Of a DNA stretch of 61,992 nucleotides, positions 26,517-59,160 are shown one piece after another. Every line of letters begins with the position of its first letter. Position 1 is the stretch's first letter. A model generated the notes under the pieces. The model was not told where the DNA came from. It was given only the letters and a program-made list of their open reading frames with translations, and searched no databases. This DNA comes from a virus, in IMG/VR virus record IMGVR_UViG_3300045988_165080, positions 1-61,992 of that record; one strand, 5' to 3'. Made by a program: the position numbers and the translations under genes.

Positions 26517-26611
26517 AGAGAACTACATTCTATTTGCTCTAGAGTGGAAGTTCTTTAATAGTTATTTATCATCGGAACCACTCTTATTGGCGTTTGAGTG
26601 GTTTTTTTGCT
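26517..26611 (+). repeat. Left copy of a ~100-bp element (21-nt identical core plus terminator hairpin); inverted copy at 59059-59160
   Basis: agagaactacattctatttgc is identical to the complement of 59140-59160. aaccactcttattggcgtttgagtggttttttt resembles the complement of 59059-59093. TATAAT at 26499-26504 lies upstream. Confidence 0.7.
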
Positions 26612-26667
26612 ATATATAATAGATTATATGTTGTTAAAGAGTGGCGATTAAGTTGCTCTTTTTATAT

Positions 26668-26743
26668 TGGCCTATAGCTCAACAGGTAGAGCGCTCGGCT
26701 GTTAACCGATAGGTTGCGAGTTCAAATCTCACTAGGCCAGCCA
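26668..26743 (+). tRNA. tRNA-Asn (anticodon GTT), CCA encoded
   Basis: Acceptor stem TGGCCTA/TAGGCCA, D-arm GCTC..GAGC, anticodon loop CTGTTAA, T-loop TTCAAAT and 3' GCCA. Confidence 0.85.
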
Positions 26744-26759
26744 TTAATATAAAAGGAGA

Positions 26760-27020
26760 ATGTCTATGAAATTATATGAATTAGCTTATTTAAATGTTGA
26801 AAAAAATAAAAACTCTATAAATTTTGGGATTATGGATAAATTTATCAATGGAAAGACTTCTCATAATCTCGTTAAAAAGAGTAAACAAGAAAAAGAAGAA
26901 GTTATTTGCTACCTAAATGGTAGAGCGATGACTAAAAGCAAACTAGAAAAGACTTTTCCTAAAAAGAAAAAAAATAAATCAAAGAGAAAATATATAAAAA
27001 AGAAAAAAACTAAAGAGTAG
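26760..27020 (+). CDS. Hypothetical protein with a lysine-rich tail
   Basis: 86-aa ORF with RBS aaaggag. C-terminus KKKKNKSKRKYIKKKKTKE. Confidence 0.45.
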   Translation: MSMKLYELAYLNVEKNKNSINFGIMDKFINGKTSHNLVKKSKQEKEEVICYLNGRAMTKSKLEKTFPKKKKNKSKRKYIKKKKTKE

Positions 27021-27074
27021 TTATTAATTGACTGCTCTTTTTTAATGCAAATAAATTTAGAAAGGAGTGGTTAG

Positions 27075-28826
27075 ATGATTTATTTTGATGATATAGAGTT
27101 TGCTAATGACAATAAATACTCTATATACTTGATTGATAAATATTTAAAGAAATATTTCCCTAAAAATCAAAATAATATCAAACAAAAATACCTTCCTAAT
27201 GAAGTTGCAAAAGTAATTGGAGAGAAGGATATAACTTTTTTTAGTTTATATTTTCTTAGGACAACATTTATTCCAAGTGATGACAACAGTGCAAGGGAAC
27301 TTTGTGAAGAACATTATAAAATATGGAAAGTTCTTTCGGAGGCTTTTGTACAAGATCTATACGATAAACTTAATATAGTAGAGCCTAGGGGACTTGCTAA
27401 GTCAACTATATGTGATAAAACACTTGCAATATGGTTACATTGCTATAAAAAATCAAAGTTTACTCTATTAGGAGCAAAAACTGCAGATGATGCCGAGCAA
27501 TTCTTAAATTCTATAAAAAAAGAGTTTCTAGAAAATGAGCTTATAAAAGATGTATTCGGAAACTTAATAGATTTAAAAGGTAAAAAGCCTAACTCGAAAG
27601 ATTATTACAAAGTTAACTCAGGAGAAATTGAGTTTACTAATGATACATACATAAGAGCAGTAGGTTCAACCACTTCTGTCCGTGGTGCTAACTGGGGAGG
27701 TGTAAGACCTACAGTAGTTATTGCTGATGACTATCAATCAGAAGTTGATATTATAACCGAAGATGCTAGAGAAAAGAAATGGAATAGATGGTGTAAAGAA
27801 GTTGAGGAGGTTGGAGATACTGCAGTATTTAGAAAAGGTAAAAAAGTTAAGTCAGCAACTAAGTTTGTAAGTATAGGAACTGTATTACACATTGATTGCT
27901 TAATAAGTAAGCTTAGTAGAAATAGAGATTATCACACTATTATGAATAGAGCTGTTTTATTAGAAGATGGCCAAACAGTTGATGATATCTTTGAAAGTGA
28001 TTTATGGATTCAATGTAAAAAGATTTATTTTGATGACAAAATAGAAGATCCTCAAATAAAAGCTAGAAAATTCTATGAAGAACATATAGATGAAATGAAA
28101 TATCCATTATTATGGGAAGAAAAATGGGATTTTTTTATAGATATAGCAGTTAAATACTGGAGTAATAGAAAATCATTTATGTCAGAAAAGATGAATGATG
28201 CTAGTAGTATAGGTGAAAAATGGTTCAAATCTATAAGAACTCAATCAGTAGAGGAGATAGAAGACCATGTTTTTTTAAAAACAATGCTTTGTGTTGACCC
28301 TGCAGGAGATAATTCTTCGAATAAGAAAAAGAAAACCGACTCATTTGCAATGATAGTAGGTTCATTAGGAGAAAATGACTTTAAATATATCAGAAGAATG
28401 ATACTTGAAAAAATGAGTTTTACAGAGTATTGTAATACAATTATTGATATTTTATTAGAATTTACTGATATAACTCATATATCTATAGAAAGAAATACCT
28501 ACTTAGGTTCAGATGTAACTACTATACAACAAATGATTGAAAAGATACCTGAACTAAAGAAAAGAAATTTAATATTTATTAATGATATGAATAATAAAAA
28601 TAAAGATAATCGTATTGCAACTATACAAGATCCAGTTAATAATGGTCAAATTATATTTGCAGATAATAATAAAGCATTTACAGATCAGATATTAGACTTT
28701 CAAGGAACTGCATATACACTACATGATGATGCTGCAGATGTTGTTTCTGATTTTGCAAATAAAATACTAAAAATAAAAACAAAAAATATAATTAGGTTCA
28801 TGGATAGAAGGAGATTGGGTGTGTAA
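27075..28826 (+). CDS. Terminase large subunit
   Basis: ATPase motifs VEPRGLAKST and VVIADDYQSE, a C-terminal nuclease region (VDPAG...HDDAADV), and position before the portal. Confidence 0.85.
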   Translation: MIYFDDIEFANDNKYSIYLIDKYLKKYFPKNQNNIKQKYLPNEVAKVIGEKDITFFSLYFLRTTFIPSDDNSARELCEEHYKIWKVLSEAFVQDLYDKLNIVEPRGLAKSTICDKTLAIWLHCYKKSKFTLLGAKTADDAEQFLNSIKKEFLENELIKDVFGNLIDLKGKKPNSKDYYKVNSGEIEFTNDTYIRAVGSTTSVRGANWGGVRPTVVIADDYQSEVDIITEDAREKKWNRWCKEVEEVGDTAVFRKGKKVKSATKFVSIGTVLHIDCLISKLSRNRDYHTIMNRAVLLEDGQTVDDIFESDLWIQCKKIYFDDKIEDPQIKARKFYEEHIDEMKYPLLWEEKWDFFIDIAVKYWSNRKSFMSEKMNDASSIGEKWFKSIRTQSVEEIEDHVFLKTMLCVDPAGDNSSNKKKKTDSFAMIVGSLGENDFKYIRRMILEKMSFTEYCNTIIDILLEFTDITHISIERNTYLGSDVTTIQQMIEKIPELKKRNLIFINDMNNKNKDNRIATIQDPVNNGQIIFADNNKAFTDQILDFQGTAYTLHDDAADVVSDFANKILKIKTKNIIRFMDRRRLGV

Positions 28827-29264
28827 ATGAAAAAATATAAGCCTATCGATGAAGTTATAAGTGTTTATGATGTTCCTAAAGAATTATGGGAATCTGAAAG
28901 CTTAATGAAAGAAAAACCGAATTGGAATAAGACAAATTATACCGAGTCGGAAAAAGTATATCAAAATAAGGAATTTATTATATTGAAAGTTAAAAGTAAT
29001 AAAAAAATTGGATTTATTGTATATAACACGAAAAAAGAGTGGGAAAATGGTCACTCTCATTTAAATTCTAGAGCTATTTCAGAAATTGTAATAAAAAATG
29101 TAATTTATAAAAGAAAACCTAAAACGAATAACTTGTATGTACTTAAAAGTCATGCAAGGGTTTCAAACGATGAAAAATACATAAAATTTATTGAAGAACT
29201 GATAGAAGTTAAAAAAAATAAGAGCAAAAATAAATATATAAATAAGAAAGGAGGCCGAAAATAA
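28827..29264 (+). CDS. Hypothetical protein inserted between terL and portal, with a lysine-rich tail
   Basis: 145-aa ORF. C-terminus KKNKSKNKYINKKGGRK. Confidence 0.5.
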   Translation: MKKYKPIDEVISVYDVPKELWESESLMKEKPNWNKTNYTESEKVYQNKEFIILKVKSNKKIGFIVYNTKKEWENGHSHLNSRAISEIVIKNVIYKRKPKTNNLYVLKSHARVSNDEKYIKFIEELIEVKKNKSKNKYINKKGGRK

Positions 29265-30676
29265 TGCAGACTATAGCTGAAATTATAGATGGTCTAAAAA
29301 AAGGAATGACTCTAGATTTAAACATTCCTGATCATATGAATTTTGTCAGATATATGTATCAATGTTTTGAGTCTGATTTACATAAATATCAAAAGATGTA
29401 TGACTATTATAAAGGTAATACAGATGCTATGGCCGATTATAAAACAATTACACAAAGGTCAAACTTAAAAGTAAATACTAATTTTTTTAAAAAGTTTGTA
29501 AAAGAAGAGGTCTCTTATACTGTAGGAAATCCTATTACTTATGAAAGTAAAGAGCAACCTGGTTTATTAGATGAATTAACATCAACCATGGCATTGTGGA
29601 ATAAAAACCATGACAGTGATTTAATGAAATATATGGTTATTTTTACTAAAGTATTTGAAATTTATCGATATGATGAAGAAGGATTTAAAAGCATTATTTC
29701 AACACCTTTAACAGGATATGCATATCAAGATGAATATGACAATGTTTTGTTTTATATGGATGTAAAAGTAGAACATTTAGATGTAGATGTTTATCACATA
29801 GATGTTTATACAAAAAAATGTGTTTATCATTTAGATAGAGAATTCAATCAAATAGAGCCTCCAACAAACCATAGATTTGGTATAATACCTGTTTCAGTAG
29901 GTAAATTAACTGAAGAATTAACAGAAGATAGTTTATATAAAGACCTAAAAGGTTTACAAGATGCTTATGAAACTAATTTATCTGACTTAGGAAATGAAAT
30001 TTCAGATTTTAGAAACGCATATATGCTGATGACAGATTGTGAATTTGAAGAAGAAAAAGTAGTTATTGATGAAGAAACTGGAGAAGAAACAAAAATAGAT
30101 CCGATTTTAGAAATGAAGAAAAAAGGCATCTTGATGGTAGGTAAAGATGGGAAGATACAATGGTTGATTAAACAAATTAATGATACTTTTGTACAAAATA
30201 CGCTAGATAGATATAAAGATGATATGTATCAAATAAGTTGTCACATAAATCATAATGAAAGGCTTCAATCAAATTTGAGTGGGATTACACTTAGAAGTAG
30301 ATTAATAGCACTTGAAAACAAATGCGCACTTCAAATAAATGCTCATTCAAATATAGTTACAAATAGATTGAAATTTTGGTGCAATTATATAAATTATTTT
30401 AAAGCAAAAAACTTTGATTGGAAAAAAATAAAAATTATTTATACTGCAAATATCCCTCAAGACGATTTAGCTACAGCTCAAATGCTTAGTCAAGTACCGC
30501 CTGGAGTTATTTCTAAGAGAACGGCATCAAGTAGATTTGGATTTATAGTAGATTTAGATGCTGAACAAAGACAAATTGAAAGAGAATATGAAGAAGAAAT
30601 GAAAAGGGAAGATGAAAGTTTAGGTGAATTGTATGGCAATAAACACCAACACACAGAAACAAACTTCGAAGAATAG
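29264..30676 (+). CDS. Portal protein (SPP1 gp6-like by size and position)
   Basis: 470 aa, directly after the terminase region and before a gp7-like head morphogenesis gene. Confidence 0.8.
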   Translation: MQTIAEIIDGLKKGMTLDLNIPDHMNFVRYMYQCFESDLHKYQKMYDYYKGNTDAMADYKTITQRSNLKVNTNFFKKFVKEEVSYTVGNPITYESKEQPGLLDELTSTMALWNKNHDSDLMKYMVIFTKVFEIYRYDEEGFKSIISTPLTGYAYQDEYDNVLFYMDVKVEHLDVDVYHIDVYTKKCVYHLDREFNQIEPPTNHRFGIIPVSVGKLTEELTEDSLYKDLKGLQDAYETNLSDLGNEISDFRNAYMLMTDCEFEEEKVVIDEETGEETKIDPILEMKKKGILMVGKDGKIQWLIKQINDTFVQNTLDRYKDDMYQISCHINHNERLQSNLSGITLRSRLIALENKCALQINAHSNIVTNRLKFWCNYINYFKAKNFDWKKIKIIYTANIPQDDLATAQMLSQVPPGVISKRTASSRFGFIVDLDAEQRQIEREYEEEMKREDESLGELYGNKHQHTETNFEE

Positions 30677-31379
30677 AAATGCTGAAGAAACTAAAAGTTT
30701 CATGGAAAAAGCATATAATCAAGCAGAACAAGAGCTTGAGAAATATCTTAAAAAGATGAATAAGACCGATAAACAGATTAGAGAGTTAATGGAAACTGCT
30801 AATTTTGCTTATCAAATAGAAAAGACATCAAAGGATTATGAAAGTGCTGAAAGATTTCTTGTAATAGCAGTTTTTTCAATGCTTAATGATGAAGATGAAT
30901 GGCTTGAAGATCTAATAGATAACTTCTTTGATGAAATGTTTGAAGAAATTGTAGAGTACTTTGGATATTTTGTAGACAATGAAGAAAAGCAGAAAATATT
31001 AAATAGAAAATATGAAGGTAAAACGTATAAACAAAGAATAAAAATCAATATGGCTAGAATAAATAATCGAACTAAAAAAAGATTAAAAATAGCGTATAAC
31101 AAGAGAAATTTATACAATATCGCATCATGGTTAACACCAAGACAAAAAATGAGTAGAAAAAGAGCAAGAGGTATATTGATATCTGAACTTAGTAGAATAG
31201 CAAATGATATCTTTATTTATTGTAATAGAGATAAAAAATTTATGTATTGTTCAGTTTTAGAGGAAAGAACTTGTGGTGATTGTGAAAGTATGCATGGTAC
31301 TATTTTAACTGCTGAAGAAGCTCATGATTTAATACCTCAGCATAATTTCTGTAAATGTTACTTTGTAGTTGTAAGATAA
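30633..31379 (+). CDS. Minor head / head morphogenesis protein (SPP1 gp7 / Mu F-like)
   Basis: C-terminal CGDCESMHGT...NFCKCYF motif and position after the portal. Confidence 0.7.
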   Translation: MAINTNTQKQTSKNRNAEETKSFMEKAYNQAEQELEKYLKKMNKTDKQIRELMETANFAYQIEKTSKDYESAERFLVIAVFSMLNDEDEWLEDLIDNFFDEMFEEIVEYFGYFVDNEEKQKILNRKYEGKTYKQRIKINMARINNRTKKRLKIAYNKRNLYNIASWLTPRQKMSRKRARGILISELSRIANDIFIYCNRDKKFMYCSVLEERTCGDCESMHGTILTAEEAHDLIPQHNFCKCYFVVVR

Positions 31380-31392
31380 TAGGAGGTCATTA

Positions 31393-31704
31393 ATGAAAAA
31401 AGTATTTATATCTCAACCAATGAGAGGACTAACAGACGAAGAAATATTAAAAAAAAGAAGTGAAATAAAAAAAAATATAGAGACTAAAATAAACGAAGAA
31501 ATAGAATTTATAGATTCGTTTTTACAAGATTATCCAAGTAATATACACGATATACACGTACCAGTTTGGTATTTAGGTAAATCAATACAACTATTATCAC
31601 AAGCAGATATGGTATACTTTGGAGAAGGTTGGAATGAAGCAAGAGGATGTAAAATAGAATATGAAATAGCAAAAGCATATGGAATAAATATAATAGGTTG
31701 TTAG
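31393..31704 (+). CDS. DUF4406 / nucleoside 2-deoxyribosyltransferase-like protein
   Basis: KKVFISQPMRGL...ADMVYFGEGWNEARGCKIEYEIAKAYGINII. Confidence 0.5.
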   Translation: MKKVFISQPMRGLTDEEILKKRSEIKKNIETKINEEIEFIDSFLQDYPSNIHDIHVPVWYLGKSIQLLSQADMVYFGEGWNEARGCKIEYEIAKAYGINIIGC

Positions 31705-31713
31705 GAGGATAAT

Positions 31714-31980
31714 ATGAACGAAAAAGAGTTTTTAAGTTGGTGTAAAGATGAAATTGTAAAGTACACTAATAATCACTTAGATAAATCAGACAATAAGCAA
31801 ATAACAAAAGATGATGTGTTTATGGTTTGGTGTACTAAAGTTTTACAAAATAATAAAGCATTGTTAAGTACAACTTTATTTGACGGAATGTATTACGAAT
31901 GTACATACAACGGAGATAAAAAAGAAATGTACATAGATGCTTACAAGAAATGGGAGAATTATAAAGTTGAGCAAAAATAA
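31714..31980 (+). CDS. Hypothetical protein
   Basis: 88-aa ORF with RBS aggagga. Confidence 0.5.
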   Translation: MNEKEFLSWCKDEIVKYTNNHLDKSDNKQITKDDVFMVWCTKVLQNNKALLSTTLFDGMYYECTYNGDKKEMYIDAYKKWENYKVEQK

Positions 31981-32206
31981 GTATAGAAAAGAAGATTATG
32001 ATTTGCTTTTAGGTATATATGCTTTTGTAGGAGTATACTTCTTAGCATATGCATTATTTTTAATATCATTAGCAATACTTCATATACCTATATCGAATAT
32101 TATAGATTGGATGGGTATGGCTGTAATATCGATACTTAGTATTGTTTATGTGGTAAGATTGCATATAAAAAGAGCAAAATCAATAAAGGATAAGGAGAAA
32201 ATATGA
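31937..32206 (+). CDS. Small membrane protein (two hydrophobic helices)
   Basis: LLLGIYAFVGVYFLAYALFLISLAIL and WMGMAVISILSIVYVV. The start is uncertain. Confidence 0.4.
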   Translation: MLTRNGRIIKLSKNKYRKEDYDLLLGIYAFVGVYFLAYALFLISLAILHIPISNIIDWMGMAVISILSIVYVVRLHIKRAKSIKDKEKI

Positions 32207-32442
32207 GTGAACAACAAATAGAAGCTATTAGAGATATTCTTAGAAAAGCTATTGACGATATAGTGAGTAATATTAGAAAGTTGATTGGTAAAATATTTAA
32301 CGACCTAATGACACTGTATAGTACTCTTAAAAAGATTAATTTAATAAAGCATAAAGAACACAAGGATGTAGTGCTTTACAAGTTAAAACCTCAAGTAATA
32401 AATAGAAAGCCGAAATATACAAGATGCAGAAATTGCTGCTAA
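32203..32442 (+). CDS. Hypothetical basic protein
   Basis: 79-aa ORF with RBS aaggagaa. Confidence 0.4.
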   Translation: MSEQQIEAIRDILRKAIDDIVSNIRKLIGKIFNDLMTLYSTLKKINLIKHKEHKDVVLYKLKPQVINRKPKYTRCRNCC

Positions 32443-32492
32443 ACAAAAGTCCGTAAGGGCTTATTTTTATGCTCCGAAATGAGGATAAACTA

Positions 32493-32557
32493 AGTACTTT
32501 GGGGGCTAGTACTCCGAGGGACTAAATTCTTATTTAAATACTATGAGGGCTAGTACT
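32493..32557 (+). repeat. Two related stem-loops sharing GGGCTAGTACT, upstream of the scaffold gene
   Basis: agtact-ttgggggct-agtact (32493-32513) and atact-atgagggct-agtact (32538-32557). A terminator lies at about 32447-32470 just before them. Confidence 0.5.
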
Positions 32558-32578
32558 TCATGGGGAAAGAGGTAAAAA

Positions 32579-33265
32579 ATGATAATCAAAAAAGATTTGT
32601 TAGAAAAATTAAACGATATAGATGAAAATGCCGATGTTACTGAAATCTTAAAAGGGATTGATGGAATAGCAGAAGTTAAAGAAATACCTTTTGATGTAAA
32701 TAAATTGACTGTTGAGGATTATAAAAATATTCTTGAAACAAATAAAGCGATACAAGGATATAATCAATCTCAATTAGATAGTGCTGTATCTAAAGGTGTT
32801 GAAAGTTTTAAAACAAAAAAAATGCCTGGAATTATAGAGAGTGAAATAAAAAAAGCAACTGCTCCAAAACATGAAACTCCTGAACAAAAGGCTCAAAGAG
32901 AACAAATGGAAGCTATGGAAGCAAGACTTAAAGAGATGGAAGAAAAGAATGCTGCAACTGAAAAGAAAAATGCAGAAAACGAAGCTAAATTAGCTCAAGA
33001 AGGTAGAATCAAAGAAAGTCGTACTTATCTAGCAGAAATGAAATATCCAAAACAAGTCGAAAATTTCTTAGAGTTTGTAGTTGGTGAAGATATGGATATC
33101 AGTAAACAAAATATTGATAAATTAGCTAATGCATTTAGCGAATATGGGCAAGAAGTCCTTAAAACTGATATGACAAATAATCCATTTAATCCTAGCAGTG
33201 GAGGAAATGGGGATCCGGTTGATCATGTTCAAGCTCAAGTAAATCAAATTTTAGGCTTGTCATAA
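32579..33265 (+). CDS. Scaffolding protein
   Basis: Highly charged, coiled-coil-like (EQKAQREQMEAMEARLKEMEEKNAATEKKNAENEAKL). Immediately precedes the capsid gene. Confidence 0.65.
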   Translation: MIIKKDLLEKLNDIDENADVTEILKGIDGIAEVKEIPFDVNKLTVEDYKNILETNKAIQGYNQSQLDSAVSKGVESFKTKKMPGIIESEIKKATAPKHETPEQKAQREQMEAMEARLKEMEEKNAATEKKNAENEAKLAQEGRIKESRTYLAEMKYPKQVENFLEFVVGEDMDISKQNIDKLANAFSEYGQEVLKTDMTNNPFNPSSGGNGDPVDHVQAQVNQILGLS

Positions 33266-33292
33266 AAATAAATTAATTAGGAGGTGTTTAGC

Positions 33293-34231
33293 ATGGCTAA
33301 CACAATACAATACGCACAAATTTTACAAAATGCATTAGACAAACAAATGGTACACGAATCATTAACAGGCTGGATGGATGCCAATGCAGGTCAAGTTAAA
33401 TATAATGGTGGTAAAGAAGTTAAAATACCTCAATTATCAATGGATGGACTTGCTAACTATGATAAACAAGCTGATAGTGGATATACTAAAGGCTCTATCA
33501 AATACGAATACAAAACTTACACAATGACACAAGATAGAGGACGTAAATTCCAAATAGACTCTCAAGATGTTGATGAAACTAACTTTGTATTAACAGCAAC
33601 AACAATAATGGGTGAATTCCAAAGAACTAAAGTTATACCTGAAGTAGATGCTTATAGATTAAGTAAATTAGCAACAACTGCCATGAGCGTGGCTAATGAT
33701 GAAAACGTAGAATACGGATACACTGTAGCAAATTCAACTGTTATAGCTAAAATTAAAAAAGGTATAAAAACATTAAGAGAAAAATGCCATAATGGAACAC
33801 TAGTTATTATGTGCAACTATGACACACAACTAGCTATAGAAGAAGCTGCATTAGGTAAATTAGCATCTGTATCTTTTTCTCAAGGTGGAATAAACACTAA
33901 AGTTCCAGCTATAGATGGATGCCCAATTATACCAGTTCCACAAAATAGACTATATAGTGCAATCCAATTATATGATGGTTCGACTAGTGGTCAAACTACT
34001 GGCGGATACATTAAAGCAACTTCTGGATTAGATGTTAACTTTTTAATCATGCCTTTAGATTTACCTTTAGCAGTAACTAAACAAGATATCATGAGAATAT
34101 TTGATCCTGAAACTAACCAAAGTGCAAATGCATGGGCTATGGACTATAGAAGATATCATGACTTATGGGTATTAGAAAGTAAAAAAGAAGGGGTATATGC
34201 AAATATAAAAGATGCAAAACCTAATCAATAA
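33293..34231 (+). CDS. Major capsid protein
   Basis: About 312 aa with RBS taggaggtg. Position is after the scaffold. Confidence 0.75.
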   Translation: MANTIQYAQILQNALDKQMVHESLTGWMDANAGQVKYNGGKEVKIPQLSMDGLANYDKQADSGYTKGSIKYEYKTYTMTQDRGRKFQIDSQDVDETNFVLTATTIMGEFQRTKVIPEVDAYRLSKLATTAMSVANDENVEYGYTVANSTVIAKIKKGIKTLREKCHNGTLVIMCNYDTQLAIEEAALGKLASVSFSQGGINTKVPAIDGCPIIPVPQNRLYSAIQLYDGSTSGQTTGGYIKATSGLDVNFLIMPLDLPLAVTKQDIMRIFDPETNQSANAWAMDYRRYHDLWVLESKKEGVYANIKDAKPNQ

Positions 34232-34252
34232 AGTAATTAATAAGGTAATTTT

Positions 34253-36118: not shown

Positions 36119-36137
36119 CCTAAAAGGAGGGATTATA

Positions 36138-36662: not shown

Positions 36663-36683
36663 TAAAAAATAGGAGGTTAAAAT

Positions 36684-50499: not shown

Positions 50500-50510
50500 G
50501 GAGGGCCAAC

Positions 50511-51050: not shown

Positions 51051-51062
51051 GAGGTGGTTTAA

Positions 51063-52877: not shown

Positions 52878-53070
52878 TCCTCATAGATTCAAGAAACTAC
52901 TAATTTATATTACTAATAATTATTTATCCTTTATGATAGGTAAATTTCCAAAGATAATAAAATATTATTATCGTTCATTAGTTCACAATTTAAAAATATT
53001 GCGTACTTAGTTTTGCGATATGGTGGAGTATAAAGGTACACCATTTAAAAATTAGAAAGGAGATTATATT

Positions 53071-53316
53071 ATGAAAGATAAAATATTGGAAAGATTCGCT
53101 TATGATACTGGAGCAACAGATAGTGGAATTAATCACTCAAAAGAAGATATTAAAGAATATTTATTAAATTTATCAGAAAATGAATTTAGATTATTTCTAA
53201 GTAGATTAATTAGGGAAGAATTTTTATCTGAAAATTCATTAGAACAAGGATATGGAATTGAAGATGTGTCAAGTTTTATAAATTGGATTAAATATGATTT
53301 AGAAATAGATATTTAA
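53071..53316 (+). CDS. Hypothetical protein
   Basis: 81-aa ORF with RBS aaaggag. Confidence 0.45.
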   Translation: MKDKILERFAYDTGATDSGINHSKEDIKEYLLNLSENEFRLFLSRLIREEFLSENSLEQGYGIEDVSSFINWIKYDLEIDI

Positions 53317-53337
53317 TAATTAAAAGGAGGTTTAATT

Positions 53338-53517
53338 ATGAACGAAGAGTATATTCTGTTAGAAGAAGATAAAAGAGAAGAATTACGAAAAGCATATGAA
53401 ATAATTGAAAAAGTAAAAAATAAAATAAATCTTGATTATGAAGAATATACATGCATAGATACAACGCTTGATTATTTAAACGTTGCGATAAATTATAAGA
53501 AAAAAATGTTGTCTTAG
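53338..53517 (+). CDS. Hypothetical small protein (not in the ORF track)
   Basis: RBS aaaggagg, then MNEEYILLEEDKREELRKAYEIIEKVKNK... (59 aa). Confidence 0.4.
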   Translation: MNEEYILLEEDKREELRKAYEIIEKVKNKINLDYEEYTCIDTTLDYLNVAINYKKKMLS

Positions 53518-53568
53518 TTAAAAATGATTGCGAACCTATTTTACCAAGTAAATACCAAGTAAGATAAT

Positions 53569-53602
53569 AAGAGTAGCTAAATCAATAGCTACTCTTTTTT
53601 AT
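53569..53602 (+). terminator. Intrinsic terminator closing the tail-fibre region
   Basis: Stem aagagtagct/agctactctt followed by a T-run. Confidence 0.75.
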
Positions 53603-53671
53603 TAAAAAATTATAAAAAGTGTAATCTTTTCCATACTTTTGCATAGAATTAAGTAAAAGGAGGTTTAGATT

Positions 53672-53851
53672 ATGAAAAATAATAAAACCGTAATCCAATT
53701 GAGTTTTAAAAATAACATGGATGATAAACTTTTATTATCGTGGCTAGAAGATAAATTTGCAGAATACGGTAATAAAAGTAATTATATAAAATACATTCTT
53801 AGAAAAGAAATGCTAAAAGAATCAAATGAGTTTGCTCAAAAAGTCAAATAG
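53672..53851 (+). CDS. Ribbon-helix-helix-like regulator heading the accessory cassette (not in the ORF track)
   Basis: RBS aaaggagg, then MKNNKTVIQLSFKNNMDDKLLLSWLEDKFAEYGNKSNYIKYILRKEM. Confidence 0.5.
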   Translation: MKNNKTVIQLSFKNNMDDKLLLSWLEDKFAEYGNKSNYIKYILRKEMLKESNEFAQKVK

Positions 53852-53887
53852 AAAAGCAAGTCCGAACCAAAATAATGCTTCACTCAT
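53822..53887 (-). CDS. Speculative 21-aa hydrophobic peptide antisense to the RHH 3' end
   Basis: RBS gaggtg 6 nt before ATG. Sequence MSEALFWFGLAFLFDFLSKLI. Confidence 0.2.
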   Translation of the reverse strand: MSEALFWFGLAFLFDFLSKLI

Positions 53888-53950
53888 TTTTATCACCTCG
53901 GTCAATTCATATTTTAATTATTATTTTAAACAGGAAGGAGATTTTTATAC

Positions 53951-54331
53951 ATGAAATCTTATAGTTTTAAGGAATATAAGTTAATATCAGAAAATGATTG
54001 CACTTTAATTGAAAAATTTCTTAATAACTTAAAGATGAATAAAAAAGAATACAAAAGAATTATTGTTTTAATAGCTATTTTTATGAATAAGAATTTAATT
54101 TCTTATTGTATAACTACAGAAACTGAAATATCAAACGTAGCTACTCAAATCCTTAGTTTATTAATGGTCTTTGCTAAATATGGTTGTATGTGTATGGGAA
54201 TAAAAAGCATTATAGAAAATGCTTTACAAGGGGCAGATTTTAAGCAAGCAACAACATCTGGAATACAATATTTCCTAATTTATATATTATTAAGTTTTTA
54301 TCCGAAACTTTTTTCAATGATTAGATTTTAG
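53951..54331 (+). CDS. Small membrane protein (two hydrophobic helices; VirB2/TcpD-like topology)
   Basis: VATQILSLLMVFAKYGCMCMGI and GIQYFLIYILLSFYPKLF. RBS aggaaggag. Confidence 0.5.
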   Translation: MKSYSFKEYKLISENDCTLIEKFLNNLKMNKKEYKRIIVLIAIFMNKNLISYCITTETEISNVATQILSLLMVFAKYGCMCMGIKSIIENALQGADFKQATTSGIQYFLIYILLSFYPKLFSMIRF

Positions 54332-54342
54332 GAGGTATTGAT

Positions 54343-54594
54343 ATGGAAGAAAAATTAAATCAAGTTATAAATATTTTAGATAATTTCTTACATCCGATAG
54401 AATTTATTAAAGAAACTGGATATGAGCTTTTAGTTGCTATACAAAATCTATCTTTTGATATATGCCTTATAGCAGGTTTTATAGCACTTTTATTATATGT
54501 ATTTGGGTATAAGAAAGGTAAGAGATGGGCATTTATGATACCTTGTATATATATTATCCTTAACATAGTTATAGGAGCAATTACTCATGCTTAA
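54343..54594 (+). CDS. Small membrane protein (two TM helices; VirB3/TcpE-like topology)
   Basis: FDICLIAGFIALLLYVFGY and WAFMIPCIYIILNIVIGAI. RBS taggagg. Confidence 0.5.
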   Translation: MEEKLNQVINILDNFLHPIEFIKETGYELLVAIQNLSFDICLIAGFIALLLYVFGYKKGKRWAFMIPCIYIILNIVIGAITHA

Positions 54595-56797
54595 AAGTAT
54601 TCCTATAGCAAAATATTTTGAGATACAAAATCAAGAATATGTATACCTAAAATTAGTTCCAAGCAAATCAATTAGAAATAATAGGACTTATTCTATGTTA
54701 GAACTTGTAAATAAAATGTATCTCAATCTTAATAAGCTCATAAAGATAGAAGATAAAAAATTAATTATAAAAACTCAATTTAAAGCAAGTTATTATATTT
54801 ACATTACAAAAGATAAAATTAATTTTTATTTTATAGTTCCTAAACTATTCTATACAAAATTTAAAGTTAAATTTAAAGAAATATGGAAATCTGTAGAAAT
54901 AAAAGAAGTTAATACAATTCCACTCCTAACTAGATCACAATATCAATTAATATATAAAAATAAGGATTATATGTCCATAAATACAGATTTAAGGTCTAAT
55001 GACTTGTTATCCGCCAATATGGCTACTGTAGGAGTATTACAAGATGGAGAAGAAGCAGGAATATTATATAATTTTCTACCTACATCAGAAAAACAATGTA
55101 ATTATTTTAAATCCACTTGTCAAAAGTTTATTAAAGAATATAAAAATACAAATGTAAAATATACATCTAATGTCGTAGCTAATATCGTTATTAAAATATT
55201 ATCTTATAGTATAGATTTTGTTAACTCAACTTTAAATTTTTTATTTGATGTAAAACAAGTAGATAAACAAGTTAATTTTAATAAATTGAGTAATAATACA
55301 ATCAAAAAAGCTACTACAGATATATGTAAAACACAGATTATATTATCTAGCAAAGCTAAAACAACTAATAGAGAAAAATCTATTATAGATACATTATTTA
55401 ATTCTTATTCGGCTATAGAAGATGACAATAAGTTTATATGTAAGAAAATTAAACACAATATAAGAACATTAAATACATCTGTATATGAATGTGGTAATTT
55501 TATAGCACTTCCTGGAGATGATATAATACAGCAATTTCCACAGATAAATCATAACAAAGTATATAATAAGAATTTCCCAAAATGTTTAGCTACTGGAAAT
55601 ATATTAATTGGTAATACTATAAAAAATACACCAGTATATTATTCTATGGATAAGGAAATTAGTAGACTTGGAAGGGTATTAATGGGAGGTATGGGATGTG
55701 GTAAAACTTATTATATGCAGAATCTAGCAAAATCTATAATAGCTAATGGAGATGGCCTTATAGTATTAGATATAATAAGGGACTGCAGTCTTGCAGAATC
55801 TATAAAGCAGGTTACACCAAAAGATAGATTAATAGAAATAGATTGTAGTAATCCTAAGCAACTACAAGGATTTTGTTATAATGAATTAGTATGTAAAAGT
55901 AATGATAATTATAGAAAATTAGCTAAATGTATGGAAAAAGGCACACAATTACACATATTACTTAATACTATTAATGCTGATACAAAATTAACTCCTAGAA
56001 TGTTACGTTACTTTTATGCAGCTTGTACCGTAGTATTTTATAAGAATTTTAACGCTAGTTTCAAAGAAATTATAGAGATACTTTTATATCCTGATGTGCG
56101 TAAAAATCTTTTAGAAAAACTTTCAGAAAATGAAAAATCTTTACTTGCAGATGAAATTAAAGATTTATACGATTTAGATAAAGTCAATAAAAATGGAAAT
56201 ATAGAGAACTATGATAGCAAGATAGACGGAATAATAGATAGAATAAGCGTATTAAAAACTAATTTATATACAAAACTAGCTTATAATACACCAGGAAATA
56301 ATAATATAGACTTTGTAAAAGCATTAGACCAAAATAAAGTTATAATTATAAAGGCTAAAGAAGAAGATTTCACAAATAGAAATATGAGAGATTTAATAGC
56401 AACATTTTATCTTTCTAAAGTATGGTTAGCAAAACAAATAAGATCTAATACACGCACAGAATTATTTATAGACGAAATTAATTTATTTCCTACAGCACAA
56501 ATTATCCTGCAAGATATTCTCACAGAATGTAGAAAATATTCTTTAATTCCTACTATAAGCTTACACTTTTTAGAACAATGTACAAAAAAGTGTAAAAATG
56601 CTATTCTAAGTAGTGGATGTAGTTTTTTATTACTTGCTGGAGCTGATGTAAAATGTTTTATTGAACTTAAGGAATTATTTAATAAGGAAGGATACACAGA
56701 AACGGATTTACTAGAACTAAAAAGATATCATGCTCTTTGCCTTATTAGAAATGAAGATAATGTATATTCTGCATTTGTGGTAAGATTACCAAAATAA
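54587..56797 (+). CDS. 736-aa P-loop NTPase (HerA/VirB4/FtsK-like motif order) with an N-terminal half I could not assign to a family
   Basis: Walker A LMGGMGCGKTYY near residue 365, then GLIVLDIIRD. Walker B TELFIDEINLF. 8-nt overlap with the upstream membrane-protein gene. Confidence 0.6.
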   Translation: MLKSIPIAKYFEIQNQEYVYLKLVPSKSIRNNRTYSMLELVNKMYLNLNKLIKIEDKKLIIKTQFKASYYIYITKDKINFYFIVPKLFYTKFKVKFKEIWKSVEIKEVNTIPLLTRSQYQLIYKNKDYMSINTDLRSNDLLSANMATVGVLQDGEEAGILYNFLPTSEKQCNYFKSTCQKFIKEYKNTNVKYTSNVVANIVIKILSYSIDFVNSTLNFLFDVKQVDKQVNFNKLSNNTIKKATTDICKTQIILSSKAKTTNREKSIIDTLFNSYSAIEDDNKFICKKIKHNIRTLNTSVYECGNFIALPGDDIIQQFPQINHNKVYNKNFPKCLATGNILIGNTIKNTPVYYSMDKEISRLGRVLMGGMGCGKTYYMQNLAKSIIANGDGLIVLDIIRDCSLAESIKQVTPKDRLIEIDCSNPKQLQGFCYNELVCKSNDNYRKLAKCMEKGTQLHILLNTINADTKLTPRMLRYFYAACTVVFYKNFNASFKEIIEILLYPDVRKNLLEKLSENEKSLLADEIKDLYDLDKVNKNGNIENYDSKIDGIIDRISVLKTNLYTKLAYNTPGNNNIDFVKALDQNKVIIIKAKEEDFTNRNMRDLIATFYLSKVWLAKQIRSNTRTELFIDEINLFPTAQIILQDILTECRKYSLIPTISLHFLEQCTKKCKNAILSSGCSFLLLAGADVKCFIELKELFNKEGYTETDLLELKRYHALCLIRNEDNVYSAFVVRLPK

Positions 56798-56824
56798 AAG
56801 GAGGTTATCCCTCCTTATTTTTAT
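56798..56824 (+). terminator. Intrinsic terminator closing the accessory cassette
   Basis: Stem aaggagg/cctcctt followed by ATTTTTAT. Confidence 0.7.
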
Positions 56825-57020
56825 GTAAATTTATATAAATTCCTGTGCTAGATAAAAATACACATAGTATACCTAAATTGCTATAAACTTGATATAACCG
56901 CTCTACGTTTATTACGGTCGCTGTCGCTACTTCATAAACGCTTCGCATATCATAGCATATGCAAAATATATATAAAAATATTACTAATTAACAAAGTTTT
57001 AACACTTAAATTATAAATAT

Positions 57021-57038
57021 TAGGAATATGTTCCGATT
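57021..57038 (+). promoter_or_regulatory. Copy 3 of 18-bp motif TAGGAATATGTTCCGATT
   Basis: Identical to 2054-2071 and 2204-2221. Followed by a hairpin-rich ORF-less leader. Confidence 0.5.
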
Positions 57039-57301
57039 GCAAATTTGTTATTGGGAATTTACACTATAATTGTAGATAAAATAATTTCTCATTTGAAACC
57101 CCAACGAGCAAAGGAATCGGTTTAATAACCTTTTCCGGAAAGGACTTACTTTTAGAGTGGGTCCTTCTTTTGCTTATTGGCTATGAAAGAGGGTGATTCC
57201 AATGTGGACTTAATAAAAAAACATTTATATTTTAATCGAATTTTAATTTTAAAAGTTATATGTGTATATAGTATTTAGAGGCACTTACCATTTTTTCTAA
57301 G

Positions 57302-57332
57302 GGGGTTACTAATTTGTAATCCCTTTTATTTT
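57302..57332 (+). terminator. Terminator-like hairpin directly upstream of the RBS of the 57353 gene (possible attenuator)
   Basis: Stem ggggttac/gtaatccc followed by TTTTATTTT. The RBS aaaggag starts about 8 nt later. Confidence 0.5.
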
Positions 57333-57352
57333 GTAAAAAGGAGTTTGAAAAG

Positions 57353-57622
57353 ATGAAAATAAATATAAAAACTCCAGAAGGAGTTCATGCTGAACAAAGA
57401 GAAATCGAAGCTTACATAAAACATATTCATAAAAAATATCCAAATCGAGAAATTGAATATCTAAATATAACAATAGACGATAAAGGGTATGTAGATTTAG
57501 AATATAAACTTGTTCCTGTTTCATTTGAAAGAATCAGAAGAATTACAGGTTATTTAAGTGAAGTTCGACAATTTAACGATGGTAAAAAAGGAGAACTTAG
57601 AGATAGAGTAAAACATACTTAA
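57353..57622 (+). CDS. Small protein with an NrdD-type glycyl-radical C-terminal motif
   Basis: FERIRRITGYLSEVRQFNDGKKGELRDRVKH resembles the class III ribonucleotide reductase C-terminus R-x-C-G-Y-L...N-x-G-K-x-x-E...R-x-x-H. Confidence 0.5.
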   Translation: MKINIKTPEGVHAEQREIEAYIKHIHKKYPNREIEYLNITIDDKGYVDLEYKLVPVSFERIRRITGYLSEVRQFNDGKKGELRDRVKHT

Positions 57623-57642
57623 GAAAATTGAGAGGTATTAAT

Positions 57643-57876
57643 ATGCAAACAGAAATAATTGTTGCTATTATAGCATTTATAGGAACTTTAGCTGGTTCTT
57701 ATTTTGCAAATAGTAAAACTACTGCAGTAATGCAAGAACAAATCAAAGGTATAAAAGAAGATATAAAAACTTTATCAACTAGAGTAGATAAACATAATAA
57801 TTTAGTAGAAAGAATGGCAAAAGTAGAAGATTCAACAAAGTCTGCACATCACAGAATAGATCACTTAGAAGAATAG
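57643..57876 (+). CDS. XhlA-like lysis-associated membrane protein
   Basis: N-terminal TM helix IIVAIIAFIGTLAGSYF plus a coiled coil. Position before the holin. Confidence 0.55.
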   Translation: MQTEIIVAIIAFIGTLAGSYFANSKTTAVMQEQIKGIKEDIKTLSTRVDKHNNLVERMAKVEDSTKSAHHRIDHLEE

Positions 57877-57886
57877 GAGGTTAATT

Positions 57887-58147
57887 ATGATAGATTTAAA
57901 TGTTATTAATAGTTATTTAGTCATTGGAGTTGTATTAGGTTGTTGTGGAATAGGATATGTTATAAAAACTAGCTTTGACTTTATTCCTAATAAGTATATT
58001 CCTTTCATAATGGCTGTATTAGGTGTTGTATTAAACATAGCAATATCTAAGTCATTTGATATGAATGTTTTCTTAGGAGGGCTTTTAAGTGGGCTTTCTA
58101 GTGTAGGATTGCACCAAAGTTTCAAGGCTTTAATTGAAAATAAATAG
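57887..58147 (+). CDS. Holin
   Basis: 86 aa with two to three TM helices, immediately upstream of the endolysin. Confidence 0.7.
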   Translation: MIDLNVINSYLVIGVVLGCCGIGYVIKTSFDFIPNKYIPFIMAVLGVVLNIAISKSFDMNVFLGGLLSGLSSVGLHQSFKALIENK

Positions 58148-58158
58148 GAGATGATATA

Positions 58159-58980
58159 ATGTCAATAGTAAAACCAACAATAGTTGAAAAATGGCAAAAG
58201 AAAAACAAATATGGTAGACCTGGAACTCCATTAAATTACACAAAAGTAGCAATTCACTATACTGGTGAAGCAGATGTACCAGGTTATAAGACTGTATCTT
58301 ATTTTAATAATGTAGTTGCTAACGGGTACAAAGTTAATGGAAAATATATATATGCTAGTGCTCACTTTGTTATAGATCTTGACGGTACTATCTATCAGTT
58401 AATACCTACAACTGAAAAATGCTATTGTACTAATAGTGCAAATGATTATGCAATAGGAGTCGAAGTTGCAACAACAGGTTCTGATAATCATTATACAGAT
58501 GCTACATATAAATCTATGGTATGGTTATGTACTTGGTTATGTGCTAATAAAGGACTTAATCCTAAAAAGGATATAATTAGACATACTGATGTAGTTGGTC
58601 GTGCTTATAAATTATGTCCAATTTACATGGTTTTAAACGAAGATAAATATGAACAATTTAGATTGGATTGTTATAACCTAAAAGCAGGCAAAATATCTGT
58701 TAATCAAATAGTTAATTGTACGAATGGTAAAGGTAAGGTTACAATAGTACCTACTACAACTACAGGTAATAACAAAACATTATATGTTAAAATACTACAA
58801 GATATAAACATGCATAGTAAACCAGACTTTACAAGCAAAAGCGTAATAGGGGTTGTTACAAAAGGTGGAGTTTATACTGTAGTAGAAACTATAAAAAGAA
58901 CTGGAACAGATATGTATAAATTAAAATCAGGAGTATATATCACTGCCAGCCCAAAATATGTAGAAGTATTTGAAAAATAA
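58159..58980 (+). CDS. Endolysin: N-acetylmuramoyl-L-alanine amidase (Amidase_2/PGRP-like) plus C-terminal SH3b
   Basis: VAIHYTGEADVPG...ASAHFVIDLDGTIYQLIP...NDYAIGVEV. C-terminus YVKILQDINMHSKPDFTSKSVIGVVTKGGVYTVVE. Confidence 0.85.
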   Translation: MSIVKPTIVEKWQKKNKYGRPGTPLNYTKVAIHYTGEADVPGYKTVSYFNNVVANGYKVNGKYIYASAHFVIDLDGTIYQLIPTTEKCYCTNSANDYAIGVEVATTGSDNHYTDATYKSMVWLCTWLCANKGLNPKKDIIRHTDVVGRAYKLCPIYMVLNEDKYEQFRLDCYNLKAGKISVNQIVNCTNGKGKVTIVPTTTTGNNKTLYVKILQDINMHSKPDFTSKSVIGVVTKGGVYTVVETIKRTGTDMYKLKSGVYITASPKYVEVFEK

Positions 58981-59058
58981 TTCTATCGGACGCGACCGAT
59001 AGCGACCGATAATATTAAAAGCTAGGGGATACTCTCCTCTAGCTTTTTTATTTTAGAC

Positions 59059-59160
59059 AGCAAAAAACCACTCTAATGGCGATAAGGGTGGTTTTTAACA
59101 TAAGTTTATAATCATTTTTCAAAGGACTATCACTCTAGTGCAAATAGAATGTAGTTCTCT
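59059..59160 (-). repeat. Right (inverted) copy of the ~100-bp element found at 26517-26611
   Basis: 59140-59160 is the exact reverse complement of 26517-26537. The 59059-59093 hairpin also works as a plus-strand terminator after the endolysin. Confidence 0.7.

What the first reader, a model, noticed from the sequence alone, without database searches (positions are those of the whole stretch)
26517..59160. ~100-bp inverted repeats bracket the 32.5-kb packaging/structural/lysis block, with the left copy 130 bp from a serine recombinase
26517-26611 and 59059-59160 are inverted copies of one element. It has a 21-nt perfectly identical core (agagaactacattctatttgc), a palindrome-containing segment (ctctagag versus cactagagtg), a variable spacer and a conserved hairpin plus T-run. 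The left copy has a TATAAT 12 nt upstream, so each copy could encode a ~100-nt terminated sRNA. Alternatively, the pair may be crossover sites. They lie in inverted orientation, and a Hin/resolvase-type recombinase gene (25815-26384) sits next to the left copy. Either way, the pair marks the boundaries of the late module almost exactly, from terL to the endolysin.
Basis: partly seen in the sequence, partly recalled or inferred. Interest (0 to 1): 0.65.

Follow-up and report, generated by a model that had tools for sequence, protein, structure and literature searches.

The report
Orphan type I antitoxin RNA genes
The two inverted ~100-bp repeats are copies of a small antisense-RNA gene of the kind that neutralises a membrane toxin in Clostridioides difficile phages, but here the toxin genes are gone, so they are leftover or free-standing antitoxins and not recombination sites.

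Summary
Two inverted copies (26517-26608 +, 59061-59160 -) share an exact 21-mer, with none expected by chance.

Each copy is a small-RNA gene with a -10 element, a 15-bp 5' stem-loop, an AU-rich variable linker and a terminator hairpin.

A covariance model built from these units finds 152 units in related phages, plasmids and gut metagenome contigs. In that set, 61 units lie antisense to the 3' end of an intact small toxin gene. These include C. difficile toxins that match NCBIfam CD_typeI_toxin, and phiCD38-2 gp33, which is named a type I toxin in the literature.

In the window only dead remnants of the toxin frame survive (KNHSNANKSG, KNHSNGDKGGF). Both copies are therefore orphan antitoxin-type sRNA genes.

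The recombinase-site idea is not supported:
- The neighbouring recombinase varies from 100% to 28% identity while the 21-mer stays identical.
- None of about 23 related contigs shows an inverted junction.
- Relatives carry tandem arrays of up to four units.

Some orphan units in relatives are identical to the antitoxins of intact modules on ~10-kb satellite-like elements. This suggests, but does not show, neutralisation of foreign toxins in trans.

The parts
26476..26504 (+). Promoter-like site of the left sRNA gene (TAGAAA, 17 nt, TATAAT)
   Evidence: The consensus scan gives 10 of 12 matches. The same promoter sequence precedes the left-locus unit in L001, L002, L005, L068, L079 and L085.
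26517..26556 (+). Left unit, 5' stem-loop (15 bp in two segments, 7-nt loop UUUGCUC). It contains the 21-mer core. Its complement followed by a T-run would serve as the toxin-mRNA terminator in an intact module.
   Evidence: RNAfold. CM R1 hit at 26517-26608, 95 bits. Covariation in the helix. The U.G pair kept in 43 of 52 sequences points to the + strand.
26557..26573 (+). Left unit, single-stranded AU-rich variable linker, the presumed specificity region
   Evidence: Unpaired in the minimum-free-energy fold. At this same locus relatives carry other linker types between identical flanks.
26574..26608 (+). Left unit, terminator hairpin (AACCACUC...GAGUGGUU) plus U-run
   Evidence: RNAfold. The pattern CCACTCTTATYGNCNTTTRAGTG is found in 51 viral loci. 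Compensatory changes in 6 of 8 pairs.
26577..26650 (-). Dead remnant of the toxin reading frame (..ATL*QHIIYYI*QKNHSNANKSGSDDK*). It has two in-frame stops and no start codon or hydrophobic N-terminus.
   Evidence: Translation. tblastn finds only KNHSNANKSG. Homology to the intact modules of L062 and L073 ends about 40 nt beyond the T-run.
59121..59160 (-). Right unit, 5' stem-loop with the identical 21-mer
   Evidence: RNAfold. CM hit at 59061-59160, 96.9 bits.
59096..59120 (-). Right unit, variable linker (GAAAAAUGAUUAUAAACUUAUGUUA)
   Evidence: The same linker type occurs in L006, L010, L011, L061 and L074 units.
59061..59095 (-). Right unit, terminator hairpin plus U-run. It is back to back with the endolysin terminator (59017-59047).
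59161..59180 (-). Putative -10 region of the right unit (TATTAT at 59172-59167). It has no TG extension and no recognisable -35, so expression is less certain than for the left unit.
   Evidence: Read directly from the sequence. The promoter scan finds no full consensus site. Relatives have TGTGATATTAT at this position.
59045..59095 (+). Dead remnant of the toxin frame (FLF*TAKNHSNGDKGGF*)

Best explanation
Each repeat is a free-standing gene for a ~95-100-nt antisense-type sRNA. It is homologous to the antitoxin RNAs of the clostridial type I toxin-antitoxin family (C. difficile RCd type).

In an intact module a 34-53-aa membrane toxin gene converges on the antitoxin gene. The antitoxin's terminator hairpin lies inside the toxin's conserved K-N-H-S...K-S-G coding region. 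Its linker covers the toxin's C-terminus and 3' UTR. Its 5' stem-loop is the complement of the toxin mRNA's own terminator. The antitoxin is therefore fully complementary to the last ~100 nt of the toxin mRNA and silences it by duplex formation.

In this phage-plasmid both toxin genes have been deleted or have decayed, while the antitoxin genes keep promoter, helices and terminator. These points are shown by the sequence. The two copies are inverted only because each sits at a separate accessory-gene hotspot: recombinase/tRNA-terS on the left and endolysin/partition genes on the right.

The following is inferred. The RNAs most likely still act as antitoxins in trans. They would pair with matching toxin mRNAs made by co-resident elements (satellite-like plasmids, prophages, rival phage-plasmids). 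This would protect the cell, and hence the phage-plasmid, from those addiction or abortive toxins. The linker would set the specificity.
For: Anatomy and structure:
- Both units have a 5' stem-loop, an open linker and a terminator hairpin.
- In 52 distinct sequences 84.9% of cells are paired against 44-48% in slid controls. Fifteen of 23 pairs change on both sides, and no shuffle of 500 reaches the observed values.
- In 33 distinct gut-metagenome units of the window's type, 89.5% of cells are paired and 11 of 23 pairs are compensatory.

Homology to known antitoxins:
- In phiCD38-2 a unit beginning AAGAGAACTGTATTCTAG... runs antisense into the 3' half of gp33. Peltier et al. 2020 (PMC7699646) name gp33 a type I toxin.
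- 61 of 152 CM hits lie opposite an intact small ORF with a hydrophobic N-terminus and a K(N/S)HS..KSG tail.
- The C. difficile toxins among these score 97.5 and 94.3 bits on NCBIfam NF047374 CD_typeI_toxin, cut-off 60. NCBI names them type I toxin-antitoxin system toxins.
- The published architecture is convergent overlapping transcripts, a short ~134-150-nt antitoxin and a Rho-independent terminator. Antitoxins are reported to work in trans, to tolerate 3 mismatches, and not to cross-protect across divergent pairs.

Loss of the toxin in the window:
- Only KNHSNANKSG and FLF*TAKNHSNGDKGGF remain, interrupted by stops.
- The alignment to intact modules breaks about 40 nt past the terminator.

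Hints that orphan units are functional:
- Relatives hold arrays of 2-4 units in which only the first has a promoter and only the last has a U-run.
- Linker cassettes are exchanged between identical flanks.
- Orphan units are 93-100% identical to the cognate antitoxins of intact modules. For example, the L004 unit equals the L060 unit.
- Those intact modules sit mostly on ~10-kb capsid-plus-primase elements. Orphans sit only on phage-plasmid relatives.
Against: - No transcript data exist for this element.
- The right copy lacks the TG extension and a recognisable -35.
- No intact toxin matching either window linker was found. The nearest toxin-linked units are 88% (left) and 85% (right) identical and differ in the linker.
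- Published data show that divergent antitoxins do not cross-protect. A current target for these two RNAs is therefore unproven.
- An orphan antitoxin is also the expected neutral intermediate when a toxin-antitoxin module decays, because losing the toxin first is harmless.
- No complementary target of significant length exists within the window itself. The best matches are 12-13 nt with E 0.02-0.09.
Confidence: 0.7

Rival explanations
1. The units are inert remnants of decayed toxin-antitoxin modules. At most they still serve as two-way transcription terminators at the borders of the late module. The hairpin with a U-run works on one strand, and the complement of the 5' stem-loop with its T-run works on the other.
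For: - The toxin frames are clearly dead.
- Losing the toxin first is the harmless route of decay.
- Both hairpins are followed by T-runs on the appropriate strands.
- The right unit abuts the endolysin terminator.
- No matching toxin was found for either window linker.
Against: - Promoters and both helices are kept intact in dozens of orphan copies. CM scores run from 37 to 107 bits (most above 50), and 89.5% of cells are paired.
- Orphans are assembled head to tail into arrays of up to four different units with one promoter and one terminator. Neutral decay does not produce that.
- Linker cassettes are swapped at a fixed locus.
- The endolysin already has its own strong terminator.
Confidence: 0.25
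2. The two copies are crossover sites for the adjacent serine recombinase, which would invert the 32.5-kb late block.
For: - A resolvase/invertase-family gene ends 132 bp from the left copy.
- The copies are inverted.
- The 5' stem-loop is a dyad-symmetric DNA sequence.
- A serine recombinase of some kind is also found beside the left unit in L001, L002, L005, L008, L068, L079 and L085.
Against: - The recombinase beside the unit is 100%, 69%, 32% or 28% identical in relatives while the 21-mer is unchanged, so protein and supposed site do not co-vary.
- Loci with TerL always carry the recombinase, and loci with the endolysin always carry ParM/Rep. None of about 23 related contigs shows the junction expected of the inverted isomer.
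- L092 is collinear with the window across the right copy.
- The right locus holds 1-4 tandem units, or a truncated unit without the stem-loop.
- The helix keeps G.U pairs, which only make sense in RNA.
- The same element is a toxin-antitoxin component in C. difficile phages that have no such recombinase next to it.
Confidence: 0.03
3. The left copy is a promoter-proximal leader and terminator of the late operon, like lambda PR'-tR'. It would be read through only when a phage antiterminator acts.
For: It lies directly upstream of tRNA-Asn, a small ORF and TerL. It has a good promoter, and two terminator-like hairpins (26574-26608 and 26636-26661) stand before the late genes.
Against: - An almost identical unit faces the 3' end of the endolysin at the other end, where there is nothing to antiterminate into.
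- Inner units of arrays have no promoter.
- Homologues are antitoxins overlapping toxin genes.
- No antiterminator was identified.
Confidence: 0.05

Closest known systems
Antitoxin RNAs RCd8-RCd15 of the C. difficile type I toxin-antitoxin systems (Maikova et al. 2018, PMC5961336; Peltier et al. 2020, PMC7699646)
   Same: - Small RNA with its own sigma-A-type promoter and a Rho-independent terminator.
- Convergent on, and complementary to, the 3' part of a small membrane-toxin mRNA.
- Carried by phages and plasmids and often placed next to CRISPR arrays.
- One covariance model detects both the window units and the RNAs opposite annotated C. difficile toxins.
   Different: - The window units have no toxin partner.
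- They are shorter (~95-100 nt against the published 125-150 nt).
- Their 5' stem-loop sequence belongs to a gut-metagenome clade not found in 185,579 reference genomes.
- In relatives they form multi-unit arrays, which the three papers consulted do not mention. A text search for 'orphan' in those papers returned nothing.
Pseudo-ToxI of phage PhiTE, a phage-borne mimic of a type III antitoxin RNA that expands in copy number to escape ToxIN (recalled from Blower et al. 2012, not checked here)
   Same: A phage carries an antitoxin RNA without the toxin. Tandem repeat number varies. The proposed benefit is neutralising a toxin encoded elsewhere.
   Different: ToxI is a 36-nt protein-binding repeat processed by the toxin (type III). 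The units here are ~100-nt antisense RNAs that would act by base pairing (type I), and no escape phenotype is known.
Hin/Gin/Cin DNA invertase systems
   Same: A small serine recombinase gene lies beside one of two inverted repeats.
   Different: Invertase sites are ~26-bp sites flanking segments of about 1-4 kb. Here the repeat is a ~100-bp structured RNA gene. The segment is 32.5 kb, no isomer is seen, and the recombinase varies independently of the repeat.
Bacillus subtilis prophage type I modules with 3' overlap (TxpA/RatA, BsrG/SR4; recalled knowledge)
   Same: Toxin and antitoxin converge and overlap at their 3' ends. The location is a prophage. The antitoxin acts by duplex formation and RNase III cleavage.
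   Different: No sequence relationship was found. The Rfam SR6 and related antitoxin models score far below threshold.

Membership tests
C. difficile-type type I toxin-antitoxin system (CD_typeI_toxin plus RCd antitoxin) | Antitoxin: a small RNA with its own promoter and a Rho-independent terminator | tested here: met
   The left copy has TAGAAA-17-TATAAT. The right copy has only a -10-like TATTAT, and the promoter scan finds no site there. Both have a hairpin with a U-run. This is a sequence-level test only, with no transcript data.
C. difficile-type type I toxin-antitoxin system (CD_typeI_toxin plus RCd antitoxin) | The antitoxin is homologous in sequence and structure to RNAs lying antisense to recognised toxins | tested here: met
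   CM R1 scores the window units at 95 and 96.9 bits. It also hits the RNAs opposite phiCD38-2 gp33 and opposite the 53-aa, 35-aa and 34-aa C. difficile toxins. Those toxins match NF047374 and carry NCBI toxin names.
C. difficile-type type I toxin-antitoxin system (CD_typeI_toxin plus RCd antitoxin) | A convergent, overlapping gene for a small hydrophobic toxin with a positively charged tail | tested here: not met
   Only interrupted C-terminal remnants remain, and there is no intact toxin anywhere in the window. The locus is therefore not a complete toxin-antitoxin system, only its antitoxin half.
C. difficile-type type I toxin-antitoxin system (CD_typeI_toxin plus RCd antitoxin) | The toxin arrests growth and the RNA neutralises it | not testable with these tools
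   This needs expression assays. It has been published for the C. difficile pairs.
Serine-invertase switch (Hin/Gin type) | Recombinase of the resolvase/invertase family next to the segment | tested here: met
   Pfam Resolvase 9.4e-38 plus HTH_7; phrog_125 8.4e-58.
Serine-invertase switch (Hin/Gin type) | Both orientations of the segment exist in the population | tested here: not met
   None of about 23 related contigs has the inverted junction. L092 and contigs 164392 and 164739 are collinear with the window. Raw reads were not available.
Serine-invertase switch (Hin/Gin type) | The sites are specific to their recombinase and change with it | tested here: not met
   The 21-mer is identical beside recombinases of 100%, 69%, 32% and 28% identity.
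Serine-invertase switch (Hin/Gin type) | Short (~26 bp) dyad-symmetric crossover sites with a matching central dinucleotide, plus an enhancer | tested here: inconclusive
   The 5' stem-loop is a dyad, but with a 7-bp centre that differs between the copies (TTTGCTC against TTTGCAC). The enhancer was not examined.
Any Rfam RNA family | Match at or above the family's gathering score | tested here: not met
   Only tRNA-Asn passes in the window. At permissive thresholds every match over the units is far below its cut-off.

The most novel reading that the evidence does not exclude
Gut phage-plasmids of this family collect promoter-driven orphan antitoxin RNAs, singly as in this window or in arrays of up to four with different linkers. 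These would act as an 'anti-addiction' or counter-defence cassette. Each unit would silence the type I toxin of a different co-resident element, notably the ~10-kb capsid-plus-primase satellite-like plasmids that carry the matching intact toxin-antitoxin modules. The phage-plasmid and its host cell would then be immune to post-segregational or infection-triggered killing by those elements. The cassette sits beside a phage-borne CRISPR array in many relatives, which would make the locus a combined offence-and-defence island.
Probability: 0.35. Interest if true: 0.75.

Novelty: new variant of a known kind. Interest (0 to 1): 0.5.

Why it matters
Type I toxin-antitoxin modules are known to stabilise C. 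difficile prophages. Antitoxins kept without their toxins, and stacked into arrays on a different class of mobile element, have not been described in the papers consulted.

If these RNAs work in trans, they would be an RNA-based way for one mobile element to disarm the addiction or abortive-infection toxins of another. That would be a type I counterpart of phage-borne pseudo-ToxI. It would also give a sequence-readable record of which elements compete in the human gut.

On the practical side, the result removes a false lead (a 32-kb invertible late block). It also supplies a covariance model for an RNA family that is absent from Rfam and left unannotated in nearly all the C. difficile phage and plasmid records listed.

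Tried and rejected
- Close relatives: megablast of both flanks against GenBank phages found none.
- Reference genomes: two scans of 185,579 reference genomes for the core motif were empty, so the host stays unidentified. The nearest TerL is C. perfringens at 55% and C. difficile phage-plasmids at 38%.
- One viral scan was wasted on a mis-spaced pattern.
- An RNAduplex scan of the window for linker targets timed out. The blastn-short replacement found only 12-14-nt matches at chance level.
- Scans for toxin-linked copies of the window's own two linker types found only orphan copies.
- CRISPR-like guide array, type III ToxI-like array, put/antiterminator RNA and packaging site were all considered. 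They were dropped once the units were seen to overlap toxin genes in phiCD38-2 and other loci.
- A search for an invertible tail-fibre segment, or a res-like repeat that could be the recombinase's real target, gave only AT-rich noise.
- RNAalifold on the plain MAFFT alignment recovered only the inner helices, because the outer stem was misaligned. The structure was therefore supplied by hand and re-tested on model-guided alignments. Those alignments lean towards the model.


Full report
**1. The observation**

The window is a circular assembly: bases 1-119 equal 61874-61992. It encodes a phage-plasmid. Its genes include a Rep/DnaD-like initiator (297-1367), a ParM-like actin (60616-61539, minus strand), TerL (27075-28826), an amidase endolysin (58159-58980), a serine recombinase (25815-26384), an ISL3 transposase and a GIY-YIG/HNH endonuclease.

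The repeat finder reports the two inverted arms at the stated positions. The 21-mer AGAGAACTACATTCTATTTGC occurs exactly twice, with none expected by chance. The alignment shows a conserved core, a variable spacer and a conserved hairpin with a T-run.

**2. Anatomy of a unit**

Folded as RNA, each copy gives the same three parts (z-scores -3.8 and -3.2):
- an unpaired AU-rich linker of 17-25 nt;
- a terminator hairpin (AACCACUC...GAGUGGUU) followed by a U-run.

The left copy has a good promoter (TAGAAA-17-TATAAT). The right copy has only a TATTAT -10, without the TG extension seen in relatives. No Rfam family matches either copy, even at permissive thresholds.

**3. Relatives**

The 21-mer and looser patterns retrieved 13 IMG/VR loci and 29 human-gut metagenome contigs. 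They retrieved nothing from the reference genomes.

In these relatives the two loci are conserved: recombinase-unit-tRNA/TerL on one side and endolysin-unit(s)-ParM/Rep on the other. The right-hand locus often holds head-to-tail arrays of 2-4 units. Only the first unit has a promoter and only the last has a U-run. Inner junctions read GAGUGGGGAAAGAGAAC. Linkers fall into about a dozen types that are shuffled among phages. At the left locus different linker types sit between identical flanks.

**4. The key link**

The terminator-hairpin pattern alone hit 51 viral loci, mostly prophages of isolates. BLAST placed these units in 34 C. difficile phage records and 31 C. difficile plasmid records (plus two from Terrisporobacter), nearly always unannotated.

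In phiCD38-2 two such RNA genes lie in tandem. The second starts AAGAGAACTGTATTCTAG..., which is the window's stem-loop. It runs antisense into the 3' half of gp33. Peltier et al. 2020 identify gp33 as a type I toxin.

On the opposite strand the terminator hairpin encodes the toxin's conserved KNHS..KSG motif. The complement of the 5' stem-loop, followed by a T-run, is the toxin mRNA's terminator. This matches the published architecture. That architecture has convergent overlapping transcripts, a short 125-150-nt antitoxin ending at a Rho-independent terminator, and overlap of about 131-134 nt. Antitoxins are active in trans, tolerate three mismatches, and do not cross-protect between divergent pairs. 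Modules often lie next to CRISPR arrays.

**5. Family-wide test**

I built a covariance model from 20 units with the hand-specified structure. It finds 101 units in the viral and phage loci (only the two in the window), 46 in the metagenome loci and 5 more in further loci.

| Alignment | Distinct sequences | Cells paired | Slid controls | Pairs changed on both sides | Shuffles reaching observed |
|---|---|---|---|---|---|
| All viral and phage loci | 52 | 84.9% | 44-48% | 15 of 23 | 0 of 500 |
| Window-type gut units | 33 | 89.5% | 39-46% | 11 of 23 | 0 of 500 on four measures; 12 of 500 on further pair types |

Conserved G.U pairs, for example U.G in 43 of 52 sequences, place the selected helix on the sRNA strand. 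These alignments are model-fitted, so the numbers lean towards the structure. The gap to the slid controls is nevertheless large.

Sixty-one of the 152 units lie opposite an intact small ORF with a hydrophobic N-terminus and a K(N/S)HS...KSG tail. The C. difficile ones score 97.5 and 94.3 bits on NCBIfam CD_typeI_toxin and carry NCBI's toxin name. The gut-metagenome toxins align with them, but only one reaches a weak HMM score.

**6. The window's units are orphans**

tblastn with eight toxin variants finds only KNHSNANKSG (26606-26577) and FLF*TAKNHSNGDKGGF (59045-59095). The antisense frames carry stop codons and have no start or hydrophobic N-terminus. Alignment with the intact modules of L062 and L073 shows that homology covers the promoter, the sRNA and about 40 nt beyond the U-run. 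It then gives way to a hairpin and tRNA-Asn.

At the right locus the close relative L092 has two orphan units, then an intact toxin-antitoxin pair, a CRISPR array and a TnpB gene. The window has a DNA methyltransferase in that position. The unit therefore sits at the edge of a variable accessory slot.

**7. Why not recombination sites**

- The recombinase beside the left unit is 100%, 69%, 32% or 28% identical in relatives, yet the 21-mer is unchanged.
- Loci with TerL always carry the recombinase and loci with the endolysin always carry ParM/Rep. No junction of the inverted isomer appears in about 23 contigs.
- Unit number varies, and some units lack the stem-loop altogether.
- The helix keeps G.U pairs, which points to RNA.
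- The element is a toxin-antitoxin part in phages that have no such recombinase next to it.

The recombinase is more plausibly a multimer resolvase of the plasmid state. That is an inference. No alternative site was found.

**8. Function**

What is shown: these are antitoxin-type sRNA genes without toxins.

What is inferred: they still act as antitoxins in trans. The points in favour are these:
- Promoters and helices are retained in dozens of orphans.
- Orphans are organised into single-promoter arrays.
- Linker cassettes are exchanged at a fixed locus.
- Orphan units are 93-100% identical to the cognate antitoxins of intact modules.
- Those intact modules lie mostly on ~10-kb capsid-plus-primase, satellite-like elements, whereas orphans lie only on phage-plasmid relatives.

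The points against are these:
- No matching toxin was found for either window linker.
- The right promoter is weak.
- An orphan antitoxin is also the neutral intermediate of module decay.

I rate the identity at about 0.85-0.9 and a present-day trans function of these two units at about 0.4.

**9. Novelty and verdict**

The RNA family is known from C. difficile, although it is absent from Rfam and from most annotations. Toxin-less copies, and arrays of them in relatives on gut phage-plasmids, appear not to have been described in the literature consulted. I classify the finding as a new variant of a known kind, of moderate interest (0.5).

Noticed in passing
L007, L009, L010, L018, L033, L061, L074, L083, L086-L090, L092, L094 (e.g. 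L010 4675-5075); absent from the window: A CRISPR array with a 37-nt repeat, GTAACAGAATATATTCCAGT(T/A)(G/A)AACAAGGATTAAAAC, and 3-8 repeats lies directly upstream of the right-hand antitoxin units in 15 related loci. It is co-oriented with them. In L087 and L089 the last repeat is fused to a truncated unit. The window has no copy, even allowing 3 mismatches.
   Followed up: partly
L003, L060, L063, L071, L073, L075, L076, L080, L082, L093, L095-L097; shared stretches at window 1756-2018, 2432-2618, 57018-57068: Intact toxin-antitoxin modules with window-type antitoxins sit mostly on ~9.5-10-kb elements. These encode an HK97-type capsid protein, a DnaG/VapE primase and HTH regulators, but no terminase, tail or integrase. 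They look like plasmid-type phage satellites. The L003-type toxin found on them is recorded on 554 contigs. L095 shares two genes and a 51-bp stretch (92%) with the window.
   Followed up: partly
window 18877-18918, 21939-22036, 23653-23701 (-), 24134-24190 (-), 60128-60174: A repeat family, GGGTATGAAACTATAACTGTGGA / AACTTTAACTGTGGAAAA, occurs in six places, including a 47-nt 98% inverted pair (24134-24180 / 60128-60174). Copies flank the ISL3 transposase gene. The same motifs overlap a TGTGGTATAAT promoter in front of the antitoxin arrays of L012 and L013. They may be operators or IS ends.
   Followed up: no
window 2050-2071, 2200-2221, 57017-57038: Three copies of TAAATAGGAATATGTTCCGATT, with a GGAATATGTTCC dyad. 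The third copy lies in the stretch shared with the ~10-kb satellite-like element, which suggests a common regulator-binding site.
   Followed up: no
window 58984-59011: CGACCGATAG-type 10-mers lie between the endolysin stop codon and its terminator. The copy number of the TATCGGTCGC unit varies from about 2 to 5 in relatives (L009, L010, L087, L088).
   Followed up: no
window 26636-26661 and 26668-26743: A second terminator-like hairpin (AAAGAGTGGCGATTAAGTTGCTCTTT plus a T-run) and a tRNA-Asn(GTT) gene occupy the place where the toxin's N-terminal half and promoter would be. They lie just upstream of a small basic ORF (26760-27020) and TerL.
   Followed up: partly
window 4105-4250: Two runs of 15-bp tandem repeats (ATCTCGAAAACGAAT x5, then TTAATAATAACAGT-type x3) lie inside ORF 3762-4688, a few kb from the replication initiator. 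They could be iterons or a repetitive coding segment.
   Followed up: no
window 22827-24140 and 24453-25715: An ISL3-family transposase (Pfam DDE_Tnp_ISL3 1.7e-62) and a 420-aa GIY-YIG plus HNH/NUMOD homing endonuclease sit between the early region and the recombinase. A GIY-YIG gene also follows the antitoxin array in L012.
   Followed up: no
L056 4025-4126 (phiCD38-2), L057 4016-4121 (phiCD211): Orphan or frame-disrupted antitoxin units also exist in well-studied C. difficile phages. Examples are the first of two tandem units in phiCD38-2, and the phiCD211 unit whose counterpart in L026 and L043 faces an intact 38-aa toxin. They are unannotated in the records.
   Followed up: partly
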